This document shows positions 4,147-59,258 of a DNA stretch of 64,000 nucleotides, piece after piece. Positions within the stretch are counted from its first letter, which is position 1; each line of letters begins with the position of its first letter. Both the position numbers and the translations under genes were made by a program. Source of the stretch: Escherichia coli (GTDB lineage: Bacteria > Pseudomonadota > Gammaproteobacteria > Enterobacterales > Enterobacteriaceae); NCBI RefSeq assembly GCF_030013205.1, contig NZ_CP122648.1; one strand, given 5' to 3'. Under the pieces are notes generated by a model. It saw nothing but the letters and a program-made list of their open reading frames with translations. It had not been told where the DNA came from and did no database searches.

Positions 4147-4196
4147 GAGGAACTCCTGTGGGAAAGCGAACCCGCCCTTACGGGCGGGATAAGAAC

Positions 4197-4517
4197 TTAA
4201 GCGGTTTGTGCCAGGTGAGCTTCAATTTTGCTCATAATGGCATCAGCGCGTTTTACCGCGTCGCTGATGTTGACGCGCACGATGGTCTTGCCAGCAAAAC
4301 GCTCTTCAAACTTGATGCCGATATCTTTGGTCAGAATCACCATATCGGCGCTCGCCACGTCTTCCGCAGTCAGTTCATTTTCCAGACCAATCGAGCCCTG
4401 GGTTTCTACTTTCACTTCCCAGCCTTTCGCTTTCGCGGCACTTTCCAGCGCCTCTGCCGCCATATAGGTATGGGCAACACCAGATGGACACGCGGTTACT
4501 GCAATAATTTTCGTCAT
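4197..4517 (-). CDS. frwB: PTS fructose-like IIB component
   Basis: 106-aa ORF, EIIB motif (VTACPSGVAHTYMAAE); synteny. Confidence 0.85.
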   Translation of the reverse strand: MTKIIAVTACPSGVAHTYMAAEALESAAKAKGWEVKVETQGSIGLENELTAEDVASADMVILTKDIGIKFEERFAGKTIVRVNISDAVKRADAIMSKIEAHLAQTA

Positions 4518-4531
4518 GGCTCGTTCCTCAA

Positions 4532-5617
4532 TTAATTAATTTCAAAATCCAAATCCAGGTCGTCTTCCTTCTCATCAGTCGAAGACCCATTTTTACGCGC
4601 CAGACTTTTCAGCACGTTCACGCAGACTGCCGTCACAACCGCCCCGACAGCCACTGCTGCGATATAACCCAGCTTGCCTTCAACCACCGGCAGCACAATC
4701 AGACCACCCCAGCCTGCATAGCACTGCGCACCGACCAGTGCCGCAGTTACCGCACCACAAACAGAACCGACCATGATGGAAGGAATGACACGTAACGGAT
4801 CGGCTGCGGCAAAAGGAATCGCCCCTTCAGTAACGCCAACACACCCCATCACCAGCGCCGCTTTGCCGGTTTCGCGCTCTTCTGCGGAGAAATTTTTACG
4901 ACCAATCAGCGTCGCCAGCCCCATGCCCAACGGTGGAACACAAATCCCAACAGCGGCAATAGCCACCACGGTATAAACACCCTGAGCAACGCAAATCAGC
5001 ATGAAGGCATAGGCCACTTTGTTAACCGGGCCGCCCATATCGAACGCCAGCATCAGCCCCATGATCACCGCCAGCATAACAATGCTGCCCTGCTGCATCC
5101 CTTGTAGCCACTGAGTCAGGCTGTTGGTCAACGCCCCTACAGGCTCGCCCAGACCCCACATCATGATGCCTGCGGTAATCAGTGTGCCGACGATCGGAAT
5201 GATGAAGATGGGCATCACCGAGCGCAGAACTTTATGCACCGGAATTTTCTTCAGGTAATGCACCACGATGCCGCCGATAATCCCGGCGATCAGTGCACCA
5301 AAGCTGTTACCAACCCAGGCACCGATAGCGCACGGAGCCAGAGCTGAGCGTTCTGCAATGGAGTAACCAATGTAAGCGGCGAGGAAAGGCACCATCAGCG
5401 TCAAACCTGCAACGCCGATATCAAACAGTTTTTTCAAATTCGGATCGGCGACGGCATCCGGCACTGCGCCTTTGCCATACAACATGACGGAAACCGCCAG
5501 CAAAATACCGCCCGATACCACGAAGGGAATCATGTGTGAAACGCCCGTCATTAAGTGCTGACGGGTATTTTTCAGGATCTGCACCAACTCATTCATAAGC
5601 TGCTCCCGGGCTTGCAA
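4532..5617 (-). CDS. frwC: PTS fructose-like IIC permease
   Basis: 361-aa polytopic membrane ORF; synteny with frwB/ptsA; exact start (first Met vs MNELVQ…) uncertain. Confidence 0.85.
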   Translation of the reverse strand: MQAREQLMNELVQILKNTRQHLMTGVSHMIPFVVSGGILLAVSVMLYGKGAVPDAVADPNLKKLFDIGVAGLTLMVPFLAAYIGYSIAERSALAPCAIGAWVGNSFGALIAGIIGGIVVHYLKKIPVHKVLRSVMPIFIIPIVGTLITAGIMMWGLGEPVGALTNSLTQWLQGMQQGSIVMLAVIMGLMLAFDMGGPVNKVAYAFMLICVAQGVYTVVAIAAVGICVPPLGMGLATLIGRKNFSAEERETGKAALVMGCVGVTEGAIPFAAADPLRVIPSIMVGSVCGAVTAALVGAQCYAGWGGLIVLPVVEGKLGYIAAVAVGAVVTAVCVNVLKSLARKNGSSTDEKEDDLDLDFEIN

Positions 5618-5904
5618 AAGCCCATGTCCATATTTTTGATGGAGGAAACAATAGGCAATCGCAGGCGGAGCAAACAGTGGATAAAAAGGCCATTTACTGG
5701 ACTTTTGTAATATCAGTACAAAAATGCGATCCGCCTCATAACTTGCGATAATCCGGAAGCATGCCGCAAAACGGCGTCTTGTGAGACGCGTCGCAAATTG
5801 ACGGTTACATTACATTTGTCCAGCTTTTGGCAGATTTGTCACATGGCAGGCCGTTGCCGTGCGCTCTTATCCTGTAAACAGAAAACCGTACCGGGAGAAA
5901 GGCA

Positions 5905-8406
5905 ATGGCCCTGATTGTGGAATTTATTTGTGAGCTACCTAACGGCGTACATGCGCGTCCGGCAAGCCACGTTGAAACGCTGTGTAATACTTTTTCATCA
6001 CAAATTGAGTGGCATAACCTGCGCACTGACCGCAAGGGCAACGCCAAAAGCGCCCTTGCGCTGATTGGCACCGATACGCTGGTGGGCGATAACTGCCAGT
6101 TACTGATTTCCGGGGCCGACGAACAGGAAGCGCACCAGCGTTTAAGCCAATGGCTGCGCGATGAATTCCCCCACTGCGACGCACCGCTGGCGGAAGTTAA
6201 ATCTGACGAACTGGAACCACTGCCGGTTTCACTGACCAATCTGAATCCGCAAATTATCCGCGCCCGCACCGTGTGCAGCGGTAGTGCAGGCGGCATTCTG
6301 ACGCCGATCTCTTCTTTAGATCTCAATGCGCTGAGTAATCTTCCCGCAGCCAAAGACGTTGACGCCGAGCAATCCGCACTGGAAAACGGCCTGACGCTGG
6401 TACTGAAAAACATTGAGTTTCGTCTGCTGGATAGCGACGGTGCCACCAGCGCGATTCTGGAAGCGCACCGCTCCCTGGCTGGCGATACTTCCCTGCGCGA
6501 ACATTTACTGGCAGGCGTCAGCGCCGGATTAAGCTGCGCCGAAGCAATTGTCGCCAGTGCGAATCACTTTTGTGAAGAGTTTTCCCGTTCCAGCAGCAGC
6601 TACCTGCAAGAACGTGCCCTGGACGTACGCGACGTCTGCTTCCAGTTACTCCAGCAAATCTACGGTGAACAACGCTTCCCGGCACCGGGCAAACTGACGC
6701 AGTCCGCCATTTGTATGGCTGATGAACTGACCCCCAGCCAGTTCCTCGAACTGGATAAAAATCACCTCAAAGGATTGTTGCTCAAAAGCGGCGGCACCAC
6801 CTCACATACCGTAATTCTTGCCCGTTCGTTCAACATTCCGACGCTGGTTGGTGTGGATATTGATGCCCTTACCCCGTGGCAACATCAAACGATTTATATC
6901 GACGGCAACGCCGGAGCGATTGTGGTTGAGCCAGGGGAAGCCGTAGCCCGTTATTATCAGCAAGAAGCCCGCGTACAGGATGCCCTGCGTGAGCAACAGC
7001 GTGTCTGGCTGACCCAACAAGCCCGTACCGCTGACGGTATCCGCATTGAAATTGCTGCTAACATCGCTCACTCCGTGGAAGCGCAGGCTGCATTCGGCAA
7101 TGGTGCGGAAGGCGTTGGTTTGTTCCGCACTGAAATGCTCTATATGGATCGCACCAGCGCACCGGGCGAAAGTGAGTTGTACAACATTTTTTGTCAGGCG
7201 CTGGAGTCCGCCAACGGGCGAAGCATTATTGTCCGCACCATGGATATTGGCGGTGACAAACCTGTTGATTATCTAAACATTCCCGCAGAAGCTAACCCGT
7301 TCCTCGGTTATCGCGCGGTGCGTATTTATGAAGAGTACGCGTCGTTGTTTACCACACAACTACGGTCGATTCTCCGTGCCTCCGCTCACGGCAGCCTGAA
7401 AATCATGATCCCGATGATCTCTTCAATGGAAGAGATCTTATGGGTGAAAGAAAAACTGGCGGAAGCCAAACAGCAACTGCGTAACGAACACATTCCGTTT
7501 GATGAGAAGATCCAGCTCGGCATCATGCTGGAAGTGCCGTCGGTGATGTTCATCATCGATCAATGCTGTGAAGAGATTGATTTCTTTAGTATTGGTAGTA
7601 ATGACCTGACGCAATATCTGCTGGCAGTGGATCGCGATAACGCTAAGGTTACTCGTCACTATAACAGCCTGAATCCAGCATTCTTGCGGGCGCTCGATTA
7701 CGCCGTGCAAGCGGTGCATCGCCAGGGCAAATGGATTGGTCTGTGCGGTGAACTGGGAGCGAAAGGTTCCGTGCTGCCATTGCTGGTCGGTTTAGGGCTG
7801 GATGAGCTGAGCATGAGCGCACCGTCAATTCCGGCGGCGAAAGCGCGAATGGCGCAACTTGATAGCCGTGAGTGCCGCAAGTTGCTCAACCAGGCAATGG
7901 CCTGCCGTACTTCGCTGGAAGTGGAACACCTGCTGGCGCAATTCCGCATGACACAACAAGACGCACCGCTGGTCACCTCCGAGTGCATCACACTGGAAAG
8001 CGACTGGCGCAGCAAAGAAGAAGTGCTCAAAGGCATGACCGATAACCTGCTGCTGGCGGGCCGCTGCCGCTATCCGCGTAAACTGGAAGCCGACTTGTGG
8101 GCGCGCGAGGCCGTTTTCTCTACCGGTCTGGGCTTTAGTTTTGCCATTCCCCACAGCAAATCGGAACATATTGAGCAATCCACCATCAGCGTAGCGCGTC
8201 TGCAAGCGCCGGTGCGCTGGGGCGATGATGAAGCGCAATTCATCATTATGTTAACGCTGAACAAACACGCTGCGGGCGATCAGCACATGCGCATTTTCTC
8301 GCGCCTCGCTCGCCGCATCATGCACGAAGAATTCCGTAACGCGCTGGTTAACGCCGCCTCTGCCGACGCTATCGCCAGCCTGCTGCAACATGAACTGGAA
8401 CTGTAA
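5905..8406 (+). CDS. ptsA: multiphosphoryl transfer protein (HPr-EI-EIIA fusion)
   Basis: 833-aa ORF; enzyme I-like core (…[21 protein letters not shown]…) plus C-terminal EIIA-like domain; synteny. Confidence 0.9.
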
Positions 8407-8417
8407 AAGGAAACATC

Positions 8418-9080
8418 ATGGAACTGTATCTGGACACCGCTAACGTCGCAGAAGTCGAACGTCTGGCACGCATATTCCCGATTGCCGGGGTGACAACTAA
8501 CCCGAGCATTATCGCTGCCAGCAAGGAGTCCATATGGGAAGTGCTGCCGCGTCTGCAAAAAGCGATTGGTGATGAGGGCATTCTGTTTGCTCAGACCATG
8601 AGCCGCGACGCGCAGGGGATGGTGGAAGAAGCGAAGCGCCTGCGCGACGCCATTCCGGGTATTGTGGTGAAAATCCCGGTGACTTCCGAAGGTCTGGCAG
8701 CAATTAAAATACTGAAAAAAGAGGGTATTACTACACTTGGCACCGCTGTATATAGCGCCGCACAAGGGTTATTAGCCGCACTGGCAGGGGCAAAATACGT
8801 TGCTCCGTATGTTAACCGCGTAGATGCCCAGGGCGGAGACGGCATTCGTACGGTTCAGGAGCTGCAAGCGCTGTTAGAAATGCACGCACCAGAAAGCATG
8901 GTGCTGGCGGCCAGCTTTAAAACGCCGCGTCAGGCGCTGGACTGTTTACTGGCAGGATGTGAATCCATCACCCTGCCCTTAGATGTAGCGCAACAAATGC
9001 TCAACACCCCTGCGGTAGAGTCAGCTATAGAGAAGTTCGAACACGACTGGAATGCCGCATTTGGCACTACTCATCTCTAA
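8418..9080 (+). CDS. fsaB: fructose-6-phosphate aldolase 2
   Basis: 220-aa ORF beginning [31 protein letters not shown] (transaldolase-like fold). Confidence 0.9.
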
Positions 9081-9090
9081 AGGAGCAATT

Positions 9091-10194
9091 ATGGACCGCA
9101 TTATTCAATCACCAGGTAAATACATCCAGGGCGCTGATGTGATTAATCGTCTGGGCGAATACCTGAAGCCGCTGGCAGAACGCTGGTTAGTGGTGGGTGA
9201 CAAATTTGTTTTAGGTTTTGCTCAATCCACTGTCGAGAAAAGCTTTAAAGATGCTGGACTGGTAGTAGAAATTGCGCCGTTTGGCGGTGAATGTTCGCAA
9301 AATGAGATCGACCGTCTGCGTGGCATTGCGGAGACTGCGCAGTGTGGCGCAATTCTCGGTATCGGTGGCGGAAAAACCCTCGATACTGCCAAAGCGCTGG
9401 CACATTTCATGGGTGTTCCGGTAGCGATCGCACCGACTATCGCCTCTACCGACGCACCGTGCAGCGCCTTGTCTGTTATCTACACCGATGATGGTGAATT
9501 TGACCGCTATCTGATGTTGCCAAATAACCCGAATATGGTCATTGTCGACACCAAAATCGTCGCTGGCGCACCTGCACGTCTGTTAGCGGCGGGTATCGGC
9601 GATGCGCTGGCAACCTGGTTTGAAGCGCGTGCCTGCTCTCGTAGCGGCGCGACCACCATGGCGGGCGGCAAGTGCACCCAGGCGGCGCTGGCACTGGCTG
9701 AACTGTGCTACAACACCCTGCTGGAAGAAGGCGAAAAAGCGATGCTTGCTGCCGAACAGCATGTAGTGACTCCGGCGCTGGAACGCGTGATTGAAGCGAA
9801 CACCTATTTGAGCGGTGTTGGTTTTGAAAGCGGCGGACTGGCGGCGGCTCACGCGGTGCATAACGGCCTGACCGCTATCCCGGACGCGCATCACTATTAT
9901 CACGGTGAAAAAGTGGCATTCGGTACGCTGACGCAGCTGGTTCTGGAAAATGCGCCGGTTGAGGAAATCGAAACCGTAGCTGCACTTAGCCATGCGGTAG
10001 GTTTGCCAATAACTCTCGCTCAACTGGATATTAAAGAAGATGTCCCGGCGAAAATGCGAATTGTGGCAGAAGCGGCATGTGCAGAAGGTGAAACCATTCA
10101 CAACATGCCTGGCGGCGCGACGCCAGATCAGGTTTACGCCGCACTGCTGGTAGCTGATCAGTATGGACAACGTTTCCTGCAAGAGTGGGAATAA
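9091..10194 (+). CDS. gldA: glycerol dehydrogenase
   Basis: ORF 9052..10194 trimmed to Met at [14 protein letters not shown] (367 aa); iron-containing ADH family motifs. Confidence 0.9.
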
Positions 10195-46594: not shown

Positions 46595-48142
46595 TTAACC
46601 GTCATGCATCATGCTGGCACGGGCGCGCGCACGTTTATCCCGCTCGTATTTTTCGAGCGCATCCTGTAACTGGCGGTCAAGCTGTGTCCCCGGCGCAGTA
46701 CCACCCGTCAGGCTGATGTGATATTCGTTTTTACTCTGGTCTACATAAGAGCGGCCAGCCGGTGCCGTGACCGGCTGATAAGCCTGATAGCCTGCATAAG
46801 AGCTGGTCGCCGGAATATAACCACCGGTGCCATACGTGGCGGCATGAGTTCTGGCGGCGGTCTGGTCAAGTGTGTCTGACTCTTTGTTGATAACACCGAG
46901 TTTTTCCAGTACCCAGTCAATACCGCTGCGCAGTTTGTTGAACGCATTAAGCGGCAGCATCAACGCGTCAGCCAGTGCCTGCCCGAACATGACGCCCGAA
47001 TCACGGCAACGGTTCAGGGTGTCCTGGGTGGCTTTGACCGGGGCAATCAGGTTTTTAAACCACTGCCACGCGGCCTGTAACTTTTCACCCAGCCAGTCAA
47101 ACAGCGGCTTAAGTGGCGTGAACAGTTCCCCCACCGGCGCAAATGCTGCTTTCAGCCCTTCAACCACACCGCCAAAGAATGCGCTGACAGGCTCCCAGTA
47201 TTTACGGATAAGCAACGCCCCGGCGACAATGGCGGCCACCACGGCCACAACCGGCCAGCTAATCGCCCCGATGGCCGTCATAACAGCACTGCCAACCGTC
47301 GTGAAGATTGCCCCCATTGCGCCTGCTGCCGCAATGATGGCATTGATGCCGGTGATAACCGGCCAGGCTACAAGACCAATTGCACCGATGATGCCAGTAA
47401 GCGCCAGTGCGCCACCGGCAATGATGCCGATAGTTGCCGCCAGTGATTTGTTTTTCTGTATCCAGCCGTCGAGTTTTAACACATACTTTGTGGCCGTCTG
47501 CGTGAGCTTACGCAGTGCGCCTTCCTGCTGGTCAAACAGGTCAGTCCCCACCGCTTCATAAGCGGACTGAAACTCCTTAAAGTCACCGCCGAGGTTGTCC
47601 TGCATGATTTTAACCAGCTCTTCCGTTTTACCGTCTGAGGCTTTCAGCGTGGCGGTCAGCTTATCCAGTTTTCCGCTTGCAGCCGCTGCCAGTAAAACGT
47701 TCGCTGATTTCAGGGCTTCCTCACCAAAAATGGTTTTAAGGTATTCCCCCTTCTGAGACGTTCCCAGCTTGTGTTTATCAAAGCTGACCTGAATCTCTTT
47801 CAGAATGGTGAACAACGGACGCATATTTCCCTTTTTGTCCGAGGTTTTAACGCCAAGCTCTTTGAGTGCTTCCCATGCTTTCCCTGTCGGAGCCTGTAAT
47901 CGGGTGACAACGGCACTACTCCCCGTACCCAGCATGGAGCCGATGCCGCACACCGCAGGCAGTGACAGGTCAGGAAACTGCACCAGAACAACACCGGCAA
48001 CCATCGAGACAAAACCACCGAGCAACATGCGCCCGATAAACAGACGCGGGGTGATGGGTTCACCACCGGCAAGCACCTTGCCGACAACAATCAGCACCCC
48101 AATCATGAAAAGCGACAGGACGCTTTTTTCTTCTGCTGTCAT
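46595..48142 (-). CDS. in-frame fusion: N-terminal holin (Y)-like membrane segment joined to C-terminal tape-measure (T) fragment
   Basis: 515-aa ORF starts 4 bp inside the X stop (Y position) with hydrophobic holin-like helices (SVLSLFMIGVLIVVGKVLAGG…) and ends just before U (T position) with Ala/Gly-rich tape-measure-like sequence; far too short for an intact T. Confidence 0.65.
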   Translation of the reverse strand: MTAEEKSVLSLFMIGVLIVVGKVLAGGEPITPRLFIGRMLLGGFVSMVAGVVLVQFPDLSLPAVCGIGSMLGTGSSAVVTRLQAPTGKAWEALKELGVKTSDKKGNMRPLFTILKEIQVSFDKHKLGTSQKGEYLKTIFGEEALKSANVLLAAAASGKLDKLTATLKASDGKTEELVKIMQDNLGGDFKEFQSAYEAVGTDLFDQQEGALRKLTQTATKYVLKLDGWIQKNKSLAATIGIIAGGALALTGIIGAIGLVAWPVITGINAIIAAAGAMGAIFTTVGSAVMTAIGAISWPVVAVVAAIVAGALLIRKYWEPVSAFFGGVVEGLKAAFAPVGELFTPLKPLFDWLGEKLQAAWQWFKNLIAPVKATQDTLNRCRDSGVMFGQALADALMLPLNAFNKLRSGIDWVLEKLGVINKESDTLDQTAARTHAATYGTGGYIPATSSYAGYQAYQPVTAPAGRSYVDQSKNEYHISLTGGTAPGTQLDRQLQDALEKYERDKRARARASMMHDG

Positions 48143-51691: not shown

Positions 51692-51864
51692 TGTCAGGAG
51701 TCCTGAATAGTGATTAGAGGAGTCACATGTCGGCATCAGTTTCCCGACGATGCGCATCCTCCGCCATCAGTCCCGGATGGCTTATCACTGACACAACAGC
51801 ACCTTAGCGAATCGCGGGGCGCGACTCAGTAGGCTTGCCGTGTATTCATCACGGCGAGGTATTC
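51692..51864. promoter_or_regulatory. divergent phage late promoter region (O-operon and P-Q operon; Ogr-dependent)
   Basis: intergenic region between divergent O and P; call is by position in the P2 map, no operator motif confidently identified. Confidence 0.4.
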
Positions 51865-53637
51865 ATGACCATCACCACAGACACCACTCTTTTACACGAC
51901 CCGCGTCGTCAGGCGGCGCTGCTGTACTGGCAGGGGTTTTCCGTGCCGCAGATTGCCGCCATGTTGCAGATGAAACGCCCGACGGTGCAGAGCTGGAAAC
52001 AGCGCGACGGCTGGGACAGCGTTGCCCCCATCAGCCGTGTCGAAATGAGTCTGGAAGCGCGGCTGACCCAGCTCATCATCAAACCGCAGAAAACCGGCGG
52101 TGACTTCAAGGAAATTGACCTGCTCGGACGCCAGATTGAACGGCTGGCACGGGTCAACCGTTACAGTCAGACCGGCAACGAGGCAGACCTTAATCCGAAC
52201 GTCGCTAACCGCAACAAAGGCGGGCGTCGCAAACCGAAAAAGAATTTTTTCAGCGACGAAGCCATCGAAAAGCTGGAGCAGATTTTCTTTGAGCAGTCTT
52301 TCGACTATCAGTTGCACTGGTATCGCGCCGGGCTTGAGCACCGCATCCGCGATATCCTGAAATCCCGCCAGATTGGCGCGACGTTTTATTTTTCCCGCGA
52401 GGCGCTGCTGCGTGCCCTGAAAACCGGTCATAACCAAATTTTTCTGTCGGCCAGTAAAACGCAGGCGTATGTGTTCCGCGAATACATCATCGCCTTTGCC
52501 CGTCTGGTTGACGTTGACCTGACCGGTGACCCGATTGTCCTGGGCAATAACGGCGCAAAACTGATTTTTCTCGGCACCAACTCCAACACCGCGCAGAGCC
52601 ATAACGGCGACCTGTACGTCGACGAGATTTTCTGGATCCCGAATTTTCAGGTACTGCGTAAGGTGGCATCAGGTATGGCCTCACAGAGCCACCTGCGCTC
52701 GACCTATTTCTCCACCCCGTCCACGCTGGCGCACGACGCCTACCCATTCTGGTCGGGTGAACTGTTCAACCGGGGACGCGCCAGCGCCGCTGAACGCGTG
52801 GAAATCGACGTCAGTCATAACGCCCTTGCCGGGGGGCTTCTCTGTGCGGACGGCCAGTGGCGGCAGATTGTCACCATTGAGGACGCCCTGAAAGGTGGCT
52901 GCACGCTGTTCGACATTGAGCAGCTCAAACGTGAAAACAGCGCCGACGATTTTAAAAACCTGTTCATGTGTGAATTTGTTGACGACAAGGCGTCGGTGTT
53001 CCCGTTCGAGGAGCTGCAACGCTGCATGGTCGACACGCTGGAAGAATGGGAAGACTATGCGCCGTTTGCCGCCAATCCGTTCGGCTCCCGCCCGGTATGG
53101 ATTGGTTACGACCCGTCACACCGTGGCGACAGCGCCGGATGCGTGGTGCTGGCACCGCCGGTGGTGGCCGGAGGTAAATTCAGAATACTTGAGCGTCACC
53201 AGTGGAAAGGCATGGACTTTGCCACTCAGGCGGAATCCATCCGCAAACTCACCGAAAAATACAACGTCGAATACATCGGAATTGATGCCACCGGCCTCGG
53301 TGTCGGCGTGTTCCAGCTCGTGCGCTCGTTCTATCCCGCCGCGCGCGATATCCGCTACACGCCGGAAATGAAAACCGCAATGGTGCTCAAGGCAAAAGAC
53401 GTCATCCGCCGTGGCTGTCTGGAATATGACGTCAGCGCCACCGACATCACCAGCTCGTTCATGGCTATCCGCAAGACCATGACCAGCAGCGGACGCAGCG
53501 CCACCTATGAGGCCAGCCGTAGCGAGGAAGCCAGCCACGCCGACCTCGCCTGGGCGACCATGCACGCCCTGTTAAATGAGCCACTCACCGCCGGTATCAG
53601 CACCCCGCTGACATCCACCATTCTGGAGTTTTACTGA
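51865..53637 (+). CDS. P: terminase ATPase (large) subunit P
   Basis: ORF trimmed to MTITTDTTLLHDPRRQAALLYWQGFSV (590 aa). Confidence 0.9.
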   Translation: MTITTDTTLLHDPRRQAALLYWQGFSVPQIAAMLQMKRPTVQSWKQRDGWDSVAPISRVEMSLEARLTQLIIKPQKTGGDFKEIDLLGRQIERLARVNRYSQTGNEADLNPNVANRNKGGRRKPKKNFFSDEAIEKLEQIFFEQSFDYQLHWYRAGLEHRIRDILKSRQIGATFYFSREALLRALKTGHNQIFLSASKTQAYVFREYIIAFARLVDVDLTGDPIVLGNNGAKLIFLGTNSNTAQSHNGDLYVDEIFWIPNFQVLRKVASGMASQSHLRSTYFSTPSTLAHDAYPFWSGELFNRGRASAAERVEIDVSHNALAGGLLCADGQWRQIVTIEDALKGGCTLFDIEQLKRENSADDFKNLFMCEFVDDKASVFPFEELQRCMVDTLEEWEDYAPFAANPFGSRPVWIGYDPSHRGDSAGCVVLAPPVVAGGKFRILERHQWKGMDFATQAESIRKLTEKYNVEYIGIDATGLGVGVFQLVRSFYPAARDIRYTPEMKTAMVLKAKDVIRRGCLEYDVSATDITSSFMAIRKTMTSSGRSATYEASRSEEASHADLAWATMHALLNEPLTAGISTPLTSTILEFY

Positions 53638-54671
53638 TGAGCAAGAAAAAAGGGAAAACACCGCAACCTGCGGCAAAAAAAATGACCGCCAGCGCCCCGA
53701 AAATGGAGGCATTCACCTTTGGTGAGCCGGTGCCGGTACTCGACCGCCGTGACATTCTGGATTACGTCGAGTGCATCAGTAACGGCAGATGGTATGAGCC
53801 ACCAGTCAGCTTTACCGGTCTGGCAAAAAGCCTGCGTGCTGCCGTGCATCACAGCTCACCGATTTACGTCAAACGCAATATTCTGGCCTCGACATTTATC
53901 CCACATCCGTGGCTTTCCCAGCAGGATTTCAGCCGCTTTGTGCTGGATTTTCTGGTGTTCGGTAATGCGTTTCTGGAAAAGCGTTACAGCACCACCGGCA
54001 AGGTCATCAGACTGGAAACCTCACCGGCAAAATATACCCGCCGTGGTGTGGAAGAGGATGTTTACTGGTGGGTGCCGTCCTTCAACGAGCCGACAGCCTT
54101 CGCGCCCGGTTCCGTGTTTCACCTGCTGGAGCCGGATATTAATCAGGAGCTGTACGGCCTGCCGGAATATCTCAGCGCCCTTAACTCTGCCTGGCTGAAT
54201 GAGTCAGCCACGCTGTTCCGCCGCAAGTATTACGAAAACGGCGCTCATGCCGGATACATCATGTACGTCACCGATGCCGTGCAGGATCGCAACGATATCG
54301 AAATGCTTCGCGAAAACATGGTTAAGTCGAAAGGCCGCAACAACTTTAAAAACCTGTTTCTCTATGCCCCGCAGGGGAAAGCTGACGGCATTAAAATTAT
54401 CCCGCTCAGTGAAGTGGCGACGAAGGACGATTTTTTTAATATCAAAAAAGCCAGTGCCGCAGACCTGCTGGACGCGCACCGCATCCCCTTTCAGTTGATG
54501 GGCGGCAAGCCGGAGAACGTCGGGTCGCTGGGTGATATTGAGAAAGTGGCAAAGGTCTTTGTCCGCAATGAGCTTATCCCGTTACAGGACAGGATTCGGG
54601 AAATAAACGGCTGGCTCGGTCAGGAGGTCATCCGCTTTAAAAACTACTCACTGGACACTGACAACGGCTGA
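53637..54671 (+). CDS. Q: portal protein Q
   Basis: 344-aa ORF; start overlaps P stop. Confidence 0.9.
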   Translation: MSKKKGKTPQPAAKKMTASAPKMEAFTFGEPVPVLDRRDILDYVECISNGRWYEPPVSFTGLAKSLRAAVHHSSPIYVKRNILASTFIPHPWLSQQDFSRFVLDFLVFGNAFLEKRYSTTGKVIRLETSPAKYTRRGVEEDVYWWVPSFNEPTAFAPGSVFHLLEPDINQELYGLPEYLSALNSAWLNESATLFRRKYYENGAHAGYIMYVTDAVQDRNDIEMLRENMVKSKGRNNFKNLFLYAPQGKADGIKIIPLSEVATKDDFFNIKKASAADLLDAHRIPFQLMGGKPENVGSLGDIEKVAKVFVRNELIPLQDRIREINGWLGQEVIRFKNYSLDTDNG

Positions 54672-54698: not shown

Positions 54699-54840
54699 AC
54701 ACCCTGTCATCACGCCCTCACACGCTCACCACCGCACAAAACACCCCGCAGACACACCAACGCCTCAACGGGCAGACTAAACGCCGTCACGACGCGCTCA
54801 GACGCTGAAAAAATAAAATCAGCACCACCGCCAGCGCGCA

Positions 54841-54859
54841 GTGCTTTCCCCGCCTCGCC
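54841..54859. other. cos site (19-nt cohesive-end sequence)
   Basis: GTGCTTTCCCCGCCTCGCC is the reverse complement of GGCGAGGCGGGGAAAGCAC, the P2/186 cohesive end as I recall it; lies between Q and the cargo, as in the P2 map. Confidence 0.55.
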
Positions 54860-54987
54860 CGCCCGCTTCATGGGTCGGTTTTAATGCAGGTGCATGAACA
54901 CACTGGAGACGCACCAGTACTGGCGGTGGTCACGTAGATCCGCCCCTTAAAAGCCATGCAGAATAATGCAACTATTGCGGGCGTCGG

Positions 54988-55407
54988 CTAATCATCTTCT
55001 AAAGGTGGAATTTTGATGCCACTAATTAGCAGTACTTTCCGGTATGCCTCAAAAATAATGTTGTGTGTTTTTTGTAAATCATCGAGCATTTTTTGCCGTC
55101 CTGCTGGGGTATCTTTGGCAAAATTATGAGCGCGAAAAAAATCATGTGCCAAGTAGTTTCTGGCTTTAAGAGCATCTGACACATACTCCAGTGTATCAGC
55201 ATCCTCCACCATCCTAGACTTCAGTGCGTAATTCAATTTACCCAGCGTGTATTTATCCATTTCTAAAAACTGTTTTTTCAGCGACTGTATATCTTTCCCC
55301 TGACTCATATCATACTCAGTGATAACATTTATCAACTCAGTCTCCAGTAATTGAGCTGCTTCCGAAGCATAACCAAATTTCCAATAAACCGTATCAAGCG
55401 TCACCAT
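54988..55407 (-). CDS. hypothetical cargo protein with R-x4-H (HEPN-like) motif
   Basis: 139-aa ORF in AT-rich DNA, codirectional with and downstream of the HNH gene; contains ARNYLAHDFF. Confidence 0.6.
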   Translation of the reverse strand: MVTLDTVYWKFGYASEAAQLLETELINVITEYDMSQGKDIQSLKKQFLEMDKYTLGKLNYALKSRMVEDADTLEYVSDALKARNYLAHDFFRAHNFAKDTPAGRQKMLDDLQKTHNIIFEAYRKVLLISGIKIPPLEDD

Positions 55408-55498
55408 ATAATCTATTCCCCATATAACAAATCACACCCAAAATTAAATCATAACACATAATTAAATCTAACGCCTCTCTGCACCAGAAGAAGTCATG

Positions 55499-56830
55499 TT
55501 AACGCTTATCATGGAACTTTTTCCATTTTGTCATCAACTTTCCAGCATCAAGTTCTACATGATGCGGTTGTAGAGTTTTACCCTCAAACATAGTTTTGTG
55601 GATACAATTAATAGAGAAATGAACCGTTAAGTCCTCTGGATTAATCCCCATTAATCCTTTATCAAACATTCGGTGTAAACTTACTTCAAGTAACAGGCCA
55701 TTAGATGTGTTATTATTTGCTGATTCTGTTATTGCTTCAATATGTGCGGCTTCCAATATCCCCTCTGGCAATGGATAGCCAGTAATAGCACATCTGCCAT
55801 TGAAGTTATCCCAAACACGGCGTTTGAAATCAGCTTGATCTCCAGCATGACGGACTTTGTGAGTAACCTCGACTGTTCGTCCTGTAGCACAGGTATCGTT
55901 TGCGGCCTTGAAAGGATTAATTAGACTTTCATTAATGGCTATATCCGTTCCATCCATGATAAGAGATATTTCATTATTGGGTTCGGGTGATGTTAATGGA
56001 CTTATGTACTGATTGCTTAAAAAAGTCATACTAGATTCTTCATCAGTCGCGAGTTTCCACGCTTCTGATTGTGTCATTGTTAGCAATGCCGTTTGATAAA
56101 CTTGCTTATTAAAATAACGTTTATCTTTCTTGTAACTCCCCATATTAATAGTACTAGATTTAATCGGAAGTGTTTTATCACCAATTAGTAGATCACGTAT
56201 TTCTACAGTCTCTTCTAAGGTATCAATAGGAGCTACTATAGGGTTAGTAAACGGGTTATCTACATGATCTACGTGGTTGTGTCGTAAATGCCACTCTATA
56301 GCACTATCTTTTATATGTATCTCGCAGACAGGGCATACAATAAGCCCCATAGATGTTACAGGTAGCTTTTTGCCACCGATTAAGCGTAATGTATTTGCAT
56401 TCTGGTTATGTACTTTCTTTTGGTTCTGTGTCAGTACACTACGCTTAGCCTCTAAACGGGTCGGAATCTTAGCAAGATTAAGCGATTTACGGCTCTCTTG
56501 TCTCTCAAGATCATAGATCCGAATCCCTGCTTCAGTTTTGATTTTTGTCCACATAGAGATAGAACTAAGGAATTTATGTCCATGTACTTTTTCATAATCA
56601 GCATAAGCTTGCAAAGTAGCAGTGGAACTATCTAATCCTTTTTTACGGAGTGCTGTATATTGCTGAAAAAGATTAATAGCATGAGCTGTAATAGAGCGCC
56701 TATTCTCTATAATTTGCGCTTTTTTTGCTGCTTGTTCTGCTTGCAATGCTTTTTGTTCAGGGGTAAGCGACTTCTTTTTGGCTTTCTTGGTTCTTTTCTT
56801 ACTCAAAGTTTTCTTACTGTTATTGTTCAT
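55499..56830 (-). CDS. HNH nuclease-domain cargo protein (Lys-rich N-terminus, C2H2-like zinc finger, C-terminal HNH)
   Basis: 443-aa ORF; N-terminus SKKTLSKKRTKKAKKK; CPVCEIHIKDSAIEWHLRHNH; C-terminus GRCAITGYPLPEGILEAAHIEAI…SNGLLLEVSLHRMFDKGLMGI resembles the HNH endonuclease core; AT-rich. Confidence 0.7.
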   Translation of the reverse strand: MNNNSKKTLSKKRTKKAKKKSLTPEQKALQAEQAAKKAQIIENRRSITAHAINLFQQYTALRKKGLDSSTATLQAYADYEKVHGHKFLSSISMWTKIKTEAGIRIYDLERQESRKSLNLAKIPTRLEAKRSVLTQNQKKVHNQNANTLRLIGGKKLPVTSMGLIVCPVCEIHIKDSAIEWHLRHNHVDHVDNPFTNPIVAPIDTLEETVEIRDLLIGDKTLPIKSSTINMGSYKKDKRYFNKQVYQTALLTMTQSEAWKLATDEESSMTFLSNQYISPLTSPEPNNEISLIMDGTDIAINESLINPFKAANDTCATGRTVEVTHKVRHAGDQADFKRRVWDNFNGRCAITGYPLPEGILEAAHIEAITESANNNTSNGLLLEVSLHRMFDKGLMGINPEDLTVHFSINCIHKTMFEGKTLQPHHVELDAGKLMTKWKKFHDKR

Positions 56831-56939
56831 TTTGCAAGCCTTTAATCTAATTCATGGAAAGGGGCATTCACTTGCCCTGTATCCAGTAAACTGACATAAC
56901 ACGATATAAGCAAGCTCCGTAATTCTTTCATGTTAATCA

Positions 56940-59258
56940 TCAATGGTCCATTGTGAATCCCGGCCACTCATCAGCGACCGGATACGTGAATTTTTTACCG
57001 TCGTAATTTACAGTCGCGCCACGCGCCAGCGCCTCAAGCTCCCATCTCTGAGGCCTGATACCGTTCTGAGCAAGGTCTACGCGGATACGGGTAATTTGCA
57101 TTCGTTCTGACCGGGTCAGTCTGGCCGATGGTGCAATTTCATGCGGTTTTAACGGGCTTCCGTTTCTTTGCTGACGGTTTGGCGTTCTCAGGTCGTATTT
57201 TAATGCGCCCCTGAGCGCCCTCACGACCTCCGGTTCATTCCATTCAATAACACCGTCATCAACCAGATTAAGCACTGCTGCGGCGTGCTCAGAAGGAGTG
57301 GGAGCCGGTAACGAAGTATCACCGCTGGTGAGCTTTCCACAGTTATTGACAGGACTCCGAGGCGCGGCGATGCCGCTTTTTAAAGTCAAAGGCTCAACGA
57401 CCGGAACTTTCGGCACAATGCGCCAGTCCGTCGTTCTGGTGATATGAATATGACGCGCGCCGAGATGCGGCGCGTAAATGCCGACCACTCTCTCGACTTC
57501 TTCCTCGTATTCGTTAACGTCATCCGACGGGCTACGGGCGACCCTGACAGTCTGACAATCGCGCGGGACATTTGCCCCGCCCTGCGCGCTGATATACAGC
57601 GCAAAATCGCCACTGTCTGCGGCGGCGCGTGCAGCCTCCACGCGTTCGTCAAATTCATCAGCAATGCTGACGCCGCGAGGCAATTTACGTAGCTCACGGT
57701 AAGCTCCCATTGTCGGCAGGCCAACCGTTTTAAATTGCGGGATGCGCCACGTTGATGCCCATGCGGTAACAGCCGCCGCAGTATCTTTCAGCGGTCTGCC
57801 GGTATCGTTATCGAGCTGACCATCCAGTGCATAGCCGTCGATATTTTTTGAAATGTATTTCGCGATATATCCCGCAGCACCGCCCCGGTTAAGGTGTTTT
57901 GCCTGAAAACGGTTTCGCGCGGCTCCTCTTTCGTCGCCATCCTCTTTGAGCGCATAGCGACGCATGATTTCGATAATCTGGTTACGCTGGCGTGGATTAC
58001 AAAAAAGCATCATATGCCAGTGCGGCGTTCCGTCGTGGTGTGGCTCGACGACTCGCAAACCGTAGACCTGTAAATCATTATCCTTGAATGCCGTGCGCAT
58101 CAGGCTCCAGATACGGCAGAGATAACGCTGCGCATCCTTTGGATTAAATGCCTCATCATTCCAGCCGTGATTAAGCTGGACGGTTTTATTTTCGCCTTTT
58201 CCGACCTGACGTGTCGGGTGATACTTTGACGGCGCGGTAAGCGTGATAAACATCCCCACATCACCCTCTGAGGCGGCGTAACGCTCAATACCGGCAATGG
58301 TGTTCATCAGCTCCATCCGGCGAATTTCAGGATTAGAAATACTGCCCATCACCTTACTGATAAGGTCGATGCGCTCGCCGGTTTCCCTGTTTTCAAGGTC
58401 ACACGATTTAAGAAATTCCAGATTTGCCTGGCGGCGCGCACGCACATCACGAATGGCGTGTTTACTGGCATAAGGAGAACGGTCTTTATTGACCTCCCCG
58501 ACAGCTATCAGTAACGCTTCATGCCAGCGCATACGCTGGCCTTTAAGCTGATGAGTCCACCACTCATCGTTAAACAGACGGGCAATTGCAGAATATGCCT
58601 GCCTCGTGGTCATCTGTCCTTTACGGTATTTTTTCCAGTAGAGAGGGGAAATATTGAAAGCACGTGCAGCACCAGCAACATGACCATAGAGGTGAGCCTG
58701 CGCCTCATCCGTAAACAGCGATTCTTTTTCGCCATGCGCATCCACCCAGGCATCGCTGAGTTCCTCATACATCATGAAAAGCTGCGATGAGATACGGGCA
58801 GCAAACTTTTTCAGCTCCTTGTCATTCATTCCCGGCAGGCGCGCATAGTGGTCACGCTCTGCCAGAAACAGTAACGACGCGTCGGTGTTCATTTCATGGC
58901 GCTGATTCACACGCTCAATGCGCGGCCATAAACGACGCTGAAAAGTGGATGTGAGGAAATAAAACCCGTGCACCGGGCTTTTATTGCGCCGGATGTAGTC
59001 ATAGCGTGAAGTAAACAGCGAGCGCAAAAAGTAAGGCAGGCGGTTAATCGTGGATAAAACACCTTGCACCTGACGCATCTCGTCACGTGTAAGGGGTCTT
59101 TCGCGCCCGACAGCCTCGCGTGGCGCGTTCCATGCATAAGCACCTGTAAACGCCTTACCGGTGCCTGCGGCAAATGCTGACGGAGGGACAAAACGTCCGG
59201 AGGCTTTAACGGCCATGTGAGCCAAAAGCCTCTGAACAACGCTTGCTGAGTTGCTCAA
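56940..59258 (-). CDS. A: replication initiation endonuclease A (rolling-circle Rep)
   Basis: 772-aa ORF in the P2 A position; true start may be a few codons downstream. Confidence 0.85.
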   Translation of the reverse strand: MSNSASVVQRLLAHMAVKASGRFVPPSAFAAGTGKAFTGAYAWNAPREAVGRERPLTRDEMRQVQGVLSTINRLPYFLRSLFTSRYDYIRRNKSPVHGFYFLTSTFQRRLWPRIERVNQRHEMNTDASLLFLAERDHYARLPGMNDKELKKFAARISSQLFMMYEELSDAWVDAHGEKESLFTDEAQAHLYGHVAGAARAFNISPLYWKKYRKGQMTTRQAYSAIARLFNDEWWTHQLKGQRMRWHEALLIAVGEVNKDRSPYASKHAIRDVRARRQANLEFLKSCDLENRETGERIDLISKVMGSISNPEIRRMELMNTIAGIERYAASEGDVGMFITLTAPSKYHPTRQVGKGENKTVQLNHGWNDEAFNPKDAQRYLCRIWSLMRTAFKDNDLQVYGLRVVEPHHDGTPHWHMMLFCNPRQRNQIIEIMRRYALKEDGDERGAARNRFQAKHLNRGGAAGYIAKYISKNIDGYALDGQLDNDTGRPLKDTAAAVTAWASTWRIPQFKTVGLPTMGAYRELRKLPRGVSIADEFDERVEAARAAADSGDFALYISAQGGANVPRDCQTVRVARSPSDDVNEYEEEVERVVGIYAPHLGARHIHITRTTDWRIVPKVPVVEPLTLKSGIAAPRSPVNNCGKLTSGDTSLPAPTPSEHAAAVLNLVDDGVIEWNEPEVVRALRGALKYDLRTPNRQQRNGSPLKPHEIAPSARLTRSERMQITRIRVDLAQNGIRPQRWELEALARGATVNYDGKKFTYPVADEWPGFTMDH

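What the first reader, a model, noticed from the sequence alone, without database searches (positions are those of the whole stretch)
54860..56939. Unassigned two-gene cargo (HNH nuclease protein + small R-x4-H protein) in the P2 tin/old hotspot: candidate undescribed anti-phage system
In P2-like phages the segment between replication gene A and cos is a variable cargo hotspot that usually carries anti-phage systems (tin, old and others). Here that slot holds two codirectional minus-strand genes in conspicuously AT-rich DNA: a 443-aa protein with a C-terminal HNH nuclease motif and a 139-aa protein. I cannot place this pair in a named defence family from the sequence; it is the most likely location of a novel system in the window.
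Basis: partly seen in the sequence, partly recalled or inferred. Interest (0 to 1): 0.9.

Follow-up and report, generated by a model that had tools for sequence, protein, structure and literature searches.

The report
Two separate candidate defence genes
The AT-rich insert in this defective P2-like prophage holds two unrelated single-gene cassettes, a zinc-finger HNH DNA nuclease and a tiny stand-alone HEPN RNase; both are plausible but untested anti-phage genes, and they are not a two-gene system.

Summary
Two codirectional minus-strand genes (443 aa, 55499-56830; 139 aa, 54988-55407) lie between cos (54841-54859) and replication gene A. This is the lowest-GC stretch of the window (0.38 against about 0.55).

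The "two-gene system" reading does not hold. The 139-aa gene occurs in P2 hotspots in at least eight different gene arrangements, once as the only cargo. Full-length homologues of the 443-aa gene sit without it in a lambdoid prophage, a Citrobacter island next to Gabija-like genes, and a Pectobacterium integrative element. Every co-occurrence found belongs to one lineage.

The large protein has a basic coiled-coil N-terminus, a C2H2 zinc finger and a C-terminal HNH_2 nuclease. Rousset et al. 2022 already list it as untested single-gene candidate #85 ("Likely a nuclease").

The small protein is a minimal HEPN fold with an invariant R-N-x3-H motif. Its family has no Pfam model and about 2,000 clusters. 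HepS is the closest functional analogue.

No library or paper I could search assigns either gene to a named system or reports a test. Verdict: two ordinary but uncharacterised candidates of moderate interest.

The parts
55499..56830 (-). Gene for a 443-aa zinc-finger/HNH_2 nuclease (single-gene cassette 1)
   Evidence: ORF. Pfam HNH_2, E 2.5e-10. phrog_20585, E 3.8e-182, unknown function. Full-length homologues at 60-80% identity. dN/dS 0.22-0.29 against homologues. Near-identical to Rousset 2022 Table S5B system #85.
55502..55846 (-). C-terminal HNH_2 (His-Me finger) nuclease domain, residues ~329-443
   Evidence: Invariant C347, T350, A361-A362-H363-I364-E365, N377-G378, H386 and H404 in 50 homologues. 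AF2 pLDDT 76-91 with a beta-beta-alpha core. The closest solved sequence is the HNH domain of 6yex, E 1.6e-5.
56273..56335 (-). C2H2-type zinc-finger motif, C166-x2-C169-x11-H181-x4-H186
   Evidence: All four ligands are at least 90% conserved across 50 homologues. The profile gives weak hits to eukaryotic C2H2 fingers in the PDB. AF2 shows strands followed by a helix at 148-185.
56201..56233 (-). Site where a ~58-aa segment present in the ~500-aa homologues is missing (residues ~200-210)
   Evidence: Comparison with P0039, P0040, P0044 and P0047. P0045 (449 aa) shares the deletion.
56831..56939 (-). Intergenic region upstream of the HNH gene, with a weak sigma-70-like site at 56957-56930
   Evidence: The site scores 9/12. 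The number of promoter-like sites in the region does not exceed the shuffles, so this is only a candidate promoter.
54988..55407 (-). Gene for a 139-aa stand-alone HEPN-fold protein (single-gene cassette 2)
   Evidence: ORF. phrog_12893, E 3.4e-86, unknown function. AF2 pLDDT 90.4, all-helical. Most named Foldseek AFDB50 hits are HEPN families, TM 0.67-0.88. dN/dS 0.11-0.21.
55144..55161 (-). Predicted HEPN catalytic motif R83-N84-Y-L-A-H88
   Evidence: R83, N84, L86 and H88 are invariant in 30 homologues. H88 is invariant and R83/N84 are at least 90% conserved in 71 distant members. The motif is defined in PMC3710099.
55408..55484 (-). Conserved 5' region that travels with the HEPN gene (probable own promoter/leader)
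   Evidence: Conserved blocks such as GCGTTAGA are shared by five loci with different upstream genes. Homology to strain LS4 stops at 55484, 15 bp below the HNH stop. A 15-nt direct repeat lies at 55436-55468.
54841..54859 (-). P2 cos cohesive-end sequence; right-hand boundary of the hotspot
   Evidence: Exact 19-mer, none expected by chance. That this is the P2 cos sequence rests on my own knowledge. P2-like phages match this flank at or near record ends.
56940..59258 (-). gpA replication endonuclease; left-hand boundary of the hotspot
   Evidence: phrog_91 'nicking at origin of replication', E 0.
53637..54671 (+). Portal protein gpQ, flanking marker
   Evidence: ORF. Annotated as phage portal protein in the identical K_EC180 locus.

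Best explanation
The 2-kb AT-rich insert is a stack of two independently mobile single-gene cassettes in the cargo hotspot of a defective P2-like prophage. Cassette 1 encodes a 443-aa DNA endonuclease. It has a basic, coiled-coil N-terminus, probably for oligomerisation and DNA contact. It also has a C2H2 zinc finger, probably for DNA binding, and a catalytically intact C-terminal HNH_2 domain. I infer that it acts alone as a restriction-like nuclease on incoming phage DNA. How it spares host DNA is unknown. Cassette 2 encodes a 139-aa minimal HEPN RNase with an R-N-x3-H active site. I infer that it works like HepS: expressed from the prophage as a latent oligomer, switched on by an infection cue, and then cleaving RNA (possibly tRNA) to abort infection. 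Shown here: the domain content, conservation of the catalytic residues, purifying selection, hotspot location and independent distribution. Inferred: defence function, substrates, triggers and oligomeric state.
For: Independence of the two genes:
- The HEPN gene occurs in P2 hotspots in at least eight arrangements. These are with HNH; with PDC-M18A/B plus PDC-S31; with DinI plus a 243-aa gene; with DinI plus a GmrSD-like gene; with 114-aa, 79-aa and 534-aa genes; with a 151-aa gene; with 89-aa and 99-aa genes; and alone in a 1,039-bp hotspot (L031).
- Distant 153-aa homologues also share no neighbour.
- HNH homologues at 65-77% identity lack the HEPN gene. They lie in a lambdoid prophage beside a TIR gene, in a Citrobacter island two genes from a Gabija-like ATPase/UvrD-helicase pair, and in a Pectobacterium integrative element.
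- tblastn confirms these absences without relying on annotation.
- In complete E. coli genomes, 11 of 5,426 carry the pair, while 18 match only the stretch covering the small gene and its upstream region, at 82.7% DNA identity. The one such genome examined (LS4) has no HNH gene.
- The cassette junction lies just after the HNH stop codon.

HNH protein:
- Pfam HNH_2 match and invariant catalytic residues.
- The nearest solved domain is in 6yex, which I recall to be the type IV EVE-HNH enzyme VcaM4I.
- Rousset 2022 curated it as a one-protein system.

HEPN protein:
- Invariant R-N-x3-H motif and a confident helical model.
- Foldseek hits to MAE_28990-like, DUF4145, DUF86, AbiU2-like, Apea-like and Cthe_2314-like HEPN proteins.
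- Sub-threshold Pfam hits of family members fall mostly on the HEPN clan.

Both genes are under purifying selection.
Against: - No functional data exist for either gene.
- The HNH protein has no recognisable modified-base reader or other self/non-self discriminator. An unregulated nuclease should be toxic.
- About a third of the HNH protein is predicted disordered, and it lacks a ~58-aa segment found in most homologues, so it could be impaired.
- The HEPN protein has no significant hit to any curated HEPN profile.
- Defence is argued from location and neighbours only. P2 hotspots also carry non-defence cargo (Rousset 2022).
- The pair is stable within its own lineage, including one variant with a mosaic small gene. 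Cooperation in that lineage cannot be excluded.
Confidence: 0.6

Rival explanations
1. One reading: the HNH protein and the small HEPN protein form one two-gene anti-phage system, for example a DNase plus an RNase, or a sensor plus an effector. Vassallo's PD-lambda-3 is described as 'Nuclease, HEPN'.
For: The genes are adjacent and codirectional, 91 bp apart, with only a weak hairpin between them. The arrangement recurs in 11 complete E. coli genomes and 4 IMG/VR contigs. It includes one variant with HNH at 96% and the small protein at 85% identity. PD-lambda-3 is listed as a 'Nuclease, HEPN' system. The small protein hits PD-Lambda-3_B weakly, E 0.0022.
Against: Each gene occurs without the other in every other lineage examined. 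The HEPN gene can be the sole hotspot cargo. All co-occurrences involve HNH proteins at least 96% identical, consistent with a single juxtaposition event. The HEPN gene keeps its own conserved upstream region. PD-Lambda-3_A does not match the HNH protein, and the B hit covers only the segment around the HEPN motif. Rousset 2022 scored HNH_2 as a one-protein system.
Confidence: 0.1
2. One or both genes are not anti-phage. The HEPN protein could be a toxin-like addiction or stress-response module that stabilises the prophage remnant. The HNH protein could be a selfish (homing-type) or phage-serving nuclease, for example for degrading host or competitor DNA, or for packaging.
For: Solo nucleases in mobile elements can be addiction or homing genes. 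The prophage is defective yet retained. HNH genes next to terminase and cos are known packaging factors in HK97-like phages (my own knowledge). P2 hotspots also hold non-defence cargo.
Against: The HNH homologues sit in at least four unrelated genomic contexts rather than one homing site. They occur outside phages, next to Gabija-like genes and a TIR gene. The protein is 443 aa of the HNH_2 type, not the ~100-aa packaging HNH, and most P2-like phages lack it. No antitoxin-like partner is conserved beside the HEPN gene. No known RNA antitoxin or tandem repeat array lies upstream.
Confidence: 0.2
3. The HNH protein is a type IV (modification-dependent) restriction enzyte of the McrA/ScoMcrA/VcaM4I kind. 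Its unrecognised N-terminal helical/zinc-finger region would read a modified base in phage DNA.
For: The HNH_2 domain's best matches are to such enzymes: NCBIfam PT-DNA_restrict (E 2.9e-8) and 6yex. There is no methyltransferase in the hotspot. EcoKMcrA is itself prophage-encoded (my own knowledge). This is a more specific version of the best explanation for cassette 1.
Against: The NCBIfam score is 33 bits against a cutoff of 180 and covers the HNH region only. No EVE, SRA, SBD or other reader domain appears by Pfam or fold search. C2H2 fingers usually read sequence, not modification.
Confidence: 0.2

Closest known systems
HepS (HEPN Solo defence element, Salmonella Gifsy-1 prophage; PMC13043305)
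   Same: Both are stand-alone, prophage-encoded HEPN proteins with no conserved partner gene. Both have a canonical R-N-x3-H motif: R100-N101...H105 in HepS and R83-N84...H88 here.
   Different: HepS has more than 200 residues; this protein has 139. Profile searches of PDB sequences found no HepS or other HEPN relative. HepS lies in a lambdoid accessory locus, not the P2 hotspot. The trigger (siphovirus J tail tip), tetramer state and anticodon-nuclease activity are known for HepS and unknown here.
Modification-dependent HNH restriction enzymes (VcaM4I EVE-HNH, PDB 6yex; ScoMcrA/SprMcrA 'PT-DNA_restrict'; EcoKMcrA of prophage e14)
   Same: Both are single-polypeptide nucleases with a C-terminal HNH(_2) domain and no cognate methyltransferase. 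The HNH_2 region aligns at E 1.6e-5 to 6yex and at E 2.9e-8 to NF045808.
   Different: The N-terminal part here is a coiled coil plus a C2H2 zinc finger, not an EVE, SRA or SBD reader. The whole-protein score is far below the NCBIfam cutoff.
Rousset et al. 2022 P2-hotspot candidate system #85 'HNH_2' (Table S5B, PMC9122126)
   Same: The arrangement with WP_023281582, the 139-aa protein, is listed in Table S5A.
   Different: It is only a catalogue entry, absent from their tested systems (Table S2). The 139-aa protein is not found in the stored text of Table S5B.
PD-lambda-3 (Vassallo et al. 2022; 'Nuclease, HEPN')
   Same: It combines a nuclease and a HEPN protein, and it was found in E. coli.
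   Different: It has three proteins. PADLOC's A model does not match the HNH protein, and the B model matches the small protein only at E 0.0022 around the HEPN motif. The two genes here do not co-vary.
P2 tin and old
   Same: They occupy the same gpA-cos slot and are prophage-expressed single-gene exclusion functions.
   Different: There is no sequence relationship. Old is an ABC-ATPase/TOPRIM protein, and no match to it or to Tin was found.

Membership tests
HEPN superfamily | Rx4-6H motif with a polar residue (N/D/H) right after the R (PMC3710099) | tested here: met
   R83-N84-Y-L-A-H88. R83, N84 and H88 are invariant in 30 homologues. H88 is invariant and R83/N84 are at least 90% conserved in 71 distant members. 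Definition.
HEPN superfamily | All-alpha helical-bundle fold superposable on known HEPN domains | tested here: met
HEPN superfamily | Significant match to a curated HEPN sequence profile | tested here: not met
   The query has no Pfam hit even at E<=10. Among 71 family members only sub-threshold hits appear, best 1.1e-3. Most fall on HEPN-clan families, and a few stray hits score comparably.
HEPN superfamily | Conserved upstream acidic residue (typically Ex3[KR]) | tested here: inconclusive
   E16, E22 and E24 in helix 1 are invariant in 30 homologues, and E22 is invariant in 71. They are not in an Ex3[KR] context, and 3D proximity to R83/H88 was not measured.
HEPN superfamily | Metal-independent RNase activity | not testable with these tools
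   Needs biochemistry.
HepS-type solo HEPN abortive-infection proteins | Stand-alone gene without a conserved partner, prophage-borne | tested here: met
   At least eight neighbour sets, including sole cargo.
HepS-type solo HEPN abortive-infection proteins | Sequence homology to HepS | tested here: inconclusive
   Profiles A1 and A3 found no HEPN chain in PDB sequences at E<=10. HepS crystal structures are reported in PMC13043305, but I could not confirm they are in the PDB copy or obtain the HepS sequence.
HepS-type solo HEPN abortive-infection proteins | Activation by a phage structural protein; anticodon nuclease activity | not testable with these tools
   Experimental.
HNH_2 (PF13391) His-Me finger nucleases | Profile match and conserved catalytic His/Asn/His | tested here: met
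   Pfam E 2.5e-10 at residues 347-397. H363, N377 and H386 are invariant in 50 homologues. The AF2 model has a beta-beta-alpha core.
Type IV modification-dependent HNH restriction enzymes (McrA/ScoMcrA/VcaM4I) | N-terminal modified-base reader domain (EVE/SRA/SBD/5mC-binding) | tested here: not met
   There is no Pfam domain N-terminal of the HNH, and no fold match outside the HNH. NF045808 scores 33 bits against a cutoff of 180, over the HNH region only. A novel reader cannot be excluded.
Type IV modification-dependent HNH restriction enzymes (McrA/ScoMcrA/VcaM4I) | Solitary nuclease without a cognate methyltransferase | tested here: met
   The hotspot holds only the two genes.
PD-lambda-3 (PADLOC PD-Lambda-3_A/B) | Matches to both component models | tested here: not met
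   There is no A hit, and the B hit is E 0.0022 at 15 bits over residues 32-95.
Two-gene (operonic) defence system | Conserved co-occurrence of the two genes across lineages | tested here: not met
   Co-occurrence is found only in one lineage with HNH at least 96% identical. It is absent from all other loci of either gene.
P2-like hotspot cargo (tin/old slot) | Located between gpA and cos/gpQ; variable among P2-like genomes | tested here: met
   The definition follows Rousset 2022 and Vassallo 2022.
HK97-type packaging HNH | Small (~100 aa) HNH conserved next to terminase in phages that need it | tested here: not met
   This protein is 443 aa, is absent from most P2-like phages, and has homologues outside phages. 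The family features are from my own knowledge.

The most novel reading that the evidence does not exclude
The 139-aa protein would represent a very large family with no Pfam model: 1,963 50%-identity clusters at E<=1e-3. Its members would be minimal stand-alone HEPN RNases that alone sense infection and abort it. At about two-thirds the size of HepS, they would be among the smallest self-contained sensor-effector immune proteins. They would be spread as a promoter-plus-ORF cassette that also serves as a recombination anchor at the cos edge of P2 hotspots.
Probability: 0.3. Interest if true: 0.6.

Novelty: new variant of a known kind. Interest (0 to 1): 0.38.

Why it matters
If either gene defends, it adds a single-gene system to the P2 hotspot repertoire. 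The HNH protein would be a nuclease that discriminates targets with a zinc finger and coiled coil instead of a known modified-base reader. The HEPN protein would be a 139-aa RNase that must combine sensing, autoinhibition and catalysis in one domain. The HEPN family is large and has no Pfam model, so one validated member would annotate thousands of genes. There is also a practical point: adjacency in a hotspot is weak evidence for a multi-gene system. Here, comparison across loci splits an apparent operon into two cassettes.

Tried and rejected
- **Foldseek of the whole HNH model against the PDB.** Nothing reached E<=1e-3. Only weak local hits to HNH-type nucleases appeared (Gme HNH, Cas9 HNH regions, T4 endonuclease VII). 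The model is multi-domain and one-third disordered.
- **AP2-like domain idea.** I suspected the ~58-aa segment missing from the window protein was an AP2-like DNA-binding domain. Pfam on the 502-aa homologue P0040 gives no AP2 hit, so I dropped the idea.
- **Profile searches of PDB sequences with the HEPN family.** No relatives were found.
- **Search for an RNA antitoxin or known ncRNA.** Rfam found no match. The only repeat is a 15-nt two-copy repeat.
- **Prior experimental tests.** Neither protein's peptides or accessions occur in the held supplements of DefensePredictor or Vassallo 2022, nor in Rousset's tested-systems table.
- **HepS sequence.** I could not obtain it because no supplements are held, so no direct alignment was possible.
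- **Packaging-HNH and homing-endonuclease readings.** Both were rejected on size, domain type and diversity of genomic context.
Full report
**1. Observation**

The window holds two codirectional minus-strand ORFs: 55499-56830 (443 aa) and 54988-55407 (139 aa). They lie in a 2-kb island of GC 0.35-0.39. The neighbouring DNA is at 0.53-0.59, and this island is the lowest-GC stretch in the whole 64-kb window.

On the left are terminase P (51835-53637, +) and portal Q (53637-54671, +). On the right is replication endonuclease gpA (56940-59258, -; phrog_91, E 0). The 19-nt sequence GGCGAGGCGGGGAAAGCAC lies at 54841-54859(-), with none expected by chance. I know this sequence as the P2 cohesive end.

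Megablast against 50,697 phage records matches only the ~200 bases next to cos. No isolated phage holds most of the insert.

The window is E. coli. The insert is 100% identical to strain K_EC180 and several pig ETEC genomes.

**2. Library matches**

*The 443-aa protein:*
- Pfam HNH_2 at residues 347-397, E 2.5e-10.
- Two generic PADLOC 'HNH' models.
- NCBIfam 'phosphorothioated DNA-binding restriction endonuclease' at 33 bits against a cutoff of 180, covering the HNH region only.
- phrog_20585, unknown function.

*The 139-aa protein:*
- No Pfam hit at all and no NCBIfam hit.
- phrog_12893, unknown function.
- A sub-threshold PADLOC hit to PD-Lambda-3_B, E 0.0022.

**3. Are the two genes a pair?**

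This was the central test, and the answer is no.

*Complete E. coli genomes.* Eleven of 5,426 carry the whole insert. Eighteen others match only window 54989-55484, which is the small gene plus 77 bp upstream, at 82.7% identity.

*Arrangements holding the small gene.* Every one of these lies between gpA and the portal gene:
- Strain LS4: a DUF2971 gene and two further genes, which match PADLOC candidates PDC-S31 and PDC-M18A/B.
- Salmonella houtenae: DinI plus a 243-aa gene.
- Kosakonia: DinI upstream and a GmrSD-like gene downstream.
- A metagenomic P2-like phage: 114-aa and 79-aa genes upstream and a 534-aa gene downstream.
- IMG/VR loci: a 151-aa gene, or 89-aa plus 99-aa genes.
- Locus L031: the small gene is the sole cargo of a 1,039-bp hotspot.

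Distant 153-aa homologues (38-43% identity) also share no neighbour with one another.

*Homologues of the HNH protein.* None has the small gene:
- The 502-aa Citrobacter protein (65% identity) sits in an island two genes from a Gabija-like pair, an OLD-type ATPase and a UvrD helicase.
- The Pectobacterium protein lies in an integrase/relaxase element.
- The closest relative (P0045, 77% identity) lies in a lambdoid prophage beside a TIR gene that matches PDC-S35.
- A ~30%-identical Klebsiella relative lies in another variable island.

Six-frame tblastn over all fetched loci confirms these absences independently of gene calls.

*Co-occurrence in IMG/VR.* Four of 13 small-gene loci and four of 9 HNH loci hold both genes. 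In all four the HNH protein is at least 96% identical to the window's, so they represent one lineage.

*The cassette junction.* An alignment of the region upstream of the small gene in five loci shows conserved blocks, such as an invariant GCGTTAGA. These blocks travel with the small gene whatever lies upstream. In the window this homology begins about 15 bp after the HNH stop codon.

The insert is therefore two cassettes placed side by side.

**4. The 443-aa protein**

Fifty homologues share these conserved residues:
- Invariant: C347, T350, A361-A362-H363-I364-E365, N377-G378, H386 and H404.
- At least 90% conserved: C166, C169, H181 and H186, which form a C-x2-C-x11-H-x4-H zinc-finger pattern.

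The AF2 model has a mean pLDDT of 66. It has confident N-terminal long helices (24-119, pLDDT 80-95), a strand-strand-helix unit at 148-185, short helices at 242-276, and the HNH core at 329-443. Residues 191-237 and 276-327 are predicted disordered.

The family profile's best solved match is the HNH region of 6yex, E 1.6e-5. I recall 6yex to be the EVE-HNH type IV enzyme VcaM4I. Weak hits to eukaryotic C2H2 fingers follow. Foldseek of the whole model finds nothing significant outside the HNH.

The window protein and P0045 lack a ~58-aa segment that the ~500-aa homologues carry. Pfam does not identify that segment.

dN/dS against homologues is 0.22-0.29.

Rousset et al. 2022 list a near-identical sequence as P2-hotspot system #85: 'HNH_2', one protein, 42 occurrences, 'Likely a nuclease'. 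They also list the arrangement 'HNH_2 + hypothetical' with WP_023281582, the accession of the 139-aa protein in K_EC180. The sequence is not in their table of tested systems.

I conclude that this is a DNA-binding HNH endonuclease that moves as a single gene among defence-rich loci. It most likely acts as a restriction-like anti-phage nuclease. How it distinguishes targets is unknown.

**5. The 139-aa protein**

Thirty homologues show invariant E16-A-A-Q-L-L-E22, E24, R83-N84, L86, H88, F90 and H94. R-N-x3-H is the canonical HEPN RNase motif, with the typical polar residue after the arginine (PMC3710099).

A profile search of 1.84 billion cluster representatives finds 1,963 proteins at E<=1e-3 and 646 at E<=1e-10. 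Most are 140-190 aa long. When 71 of these were scanned against Pfam, none passed threshold, but most of the weak hits fall on the HEPN clan. No solved structure is a sequence relative.

dN/dS is 0.11-0.21.

The closest functional analogue is HepS. It is a prophage-encoded solo HEPN with R100-N101...H105 and more than 200 residues. It rests as an inactive tetramer, is opened by the siphovirus J tail-tip protein, and then cuts tRNA anticodon loops. Its homologues have no conserved partner gene (PMC13043305).

I infer a HepS-like abortive-infection role. The trigger and substrate are unknown.

**6. Rival readings**

*Pair model.* It keeps some weight (0.1). The arrangement is stable within its lineage, and 'nuclease + HEPN' systems exist: PD-lambda-3 is described that way. 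The distribution data argue against it.

*Non-defence roles (addiction, homing or packaging).* These are disfavoured for three reasons:
- The genomic contexts are diverse.
- The neighbours are defence genes.
- No partner gene or known RNA antitoxin is present.

They cannot be excluded without experiments.

*Type IV restriction reading of the HNH protein.* This is a refinement of the best explanation. It lacks its defining reader domain.

**7. Novelty and score**

Both effector domains and both modes of action are known kinds: a single-protein HNH nuclease and a solo HEPN RNase. The specific architectures are unnamed and untested. The HNH candidate was already catalogued in 2022. I rate this a new variant of a known kind, with interest 0.38.

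The most novel reading still open is that the small protein defines a very large family of minimal self-sufficient HEPN immune proteins (probability 0.3).

**8. Seen in passing**

The prophage is defective. ORF 46595-48142(-) joins a holin N-terminus (residues 1-82) to the C-terminal part of the tape-measure protein (residues 68-511). This implies loss of the lysis, baseplate and tail genes between them.

Noticed in passing
window 46595-48142 (-), and 44.6-51.8 kb generally: The P2-like prophage is a deletion remnant. One 515-aa ORF joins a holin N-terminus (phrog_175, residues 1-82) to the distal part of the tape-measure protein (phrog_28, residues 68-511). The lysis, baseplate, fibre and sheath/tube genes between gpY and gpT are therefore missing. 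Head, packaging, replication, immunity and integrase genes and the cargo remain.
   Followed up: partly
L002 (E. coli K_EC180, NZ_CP062203) 2077-2738: The strain with an identical insert carries a different, larger deletion: a tail-protein pseudogene abuts a terminase fragment directly before the portal gene. The cargo has thus been kept through independent decay of the prophage.
   Followed up: no
window ~56201-56233 (-), residues ~200-210 of the 443-aa protein: The window protein and P0045 (449 aa) lack a ~58-aa segment (…TGE[KR]YISFW…KRYLLQVYPNAIRVTLPFMG…KWFDT) present in the 500-512-aa homologues. It looked AP2-like to me, but Pfam gives no support.
   Followed up: partly
L028/L039 (IMGVR_UViG_2703718839_000009) and protein P0003: P0003 (84% identical) is mosaic: its N-terminal half matches the window allele and its C-terminal half matches the LS4 allele. 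L028/L039 pairs a 96%-identical HNH with an 85%-identical small gene that may be the same mosaic. This suggests recombination inside the HEPN gene, which may act as a homology anchor at the cos edge of the hotspot.
   Followed up: partly
L031 (IMGVR_UViG_3300025711_000042) 5536-6575: This P2-like hotspot is only 1,039 bp long, and the HEPN gene (138 aa, 73% identical) is its sole credible gene.
   Followed up: yes
L001 (E. coli LS4) 6000-9322: The LS4-type hotspot stacks PADLOC candidates PDC-M18A/B and PDC-S31 (DUF2971) upstream of the HEPN gene. This is another case of several independent modules in one slot.
   Followed up: yes
window 55436-55468: Two copies of a 15-nt direct repeat (GATTTAATT[A/T]TG[T/G]GT on the coding strand), 18 nt apart, lie in the conserved leader of the HEPN gene. 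They are a possible operator or promoter element.
   Followed up: no
H29, E. coli O139:H1 W13-16 (NZ_CP080235) 2277-5653: In one genome the otherwise identical insert is split into two pieces by an IS3-family transposase.
   Followed up: no
window 54710-54871 (-): A 53-aa GC-rich ORF overlaps the cos region. It is probably not a gene. The corresponding stretch of other P2-like phages is sometimes annotated 'hypothetical protein'.
   Followed up: no
L009 (metagenome contig ERZ25039465) 5084-7081: A 153-aa distant homologue of the HEPN protein sits in a tight same-strand run with DUF4145 (itself a HEPN family), a 123-aa protein and DUF6988, with DUF5677 nearby. This may be a cluster of helical nuclease-like genes. 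The neighbours are not conserved in other loci of that clade.
   Followed up: partly
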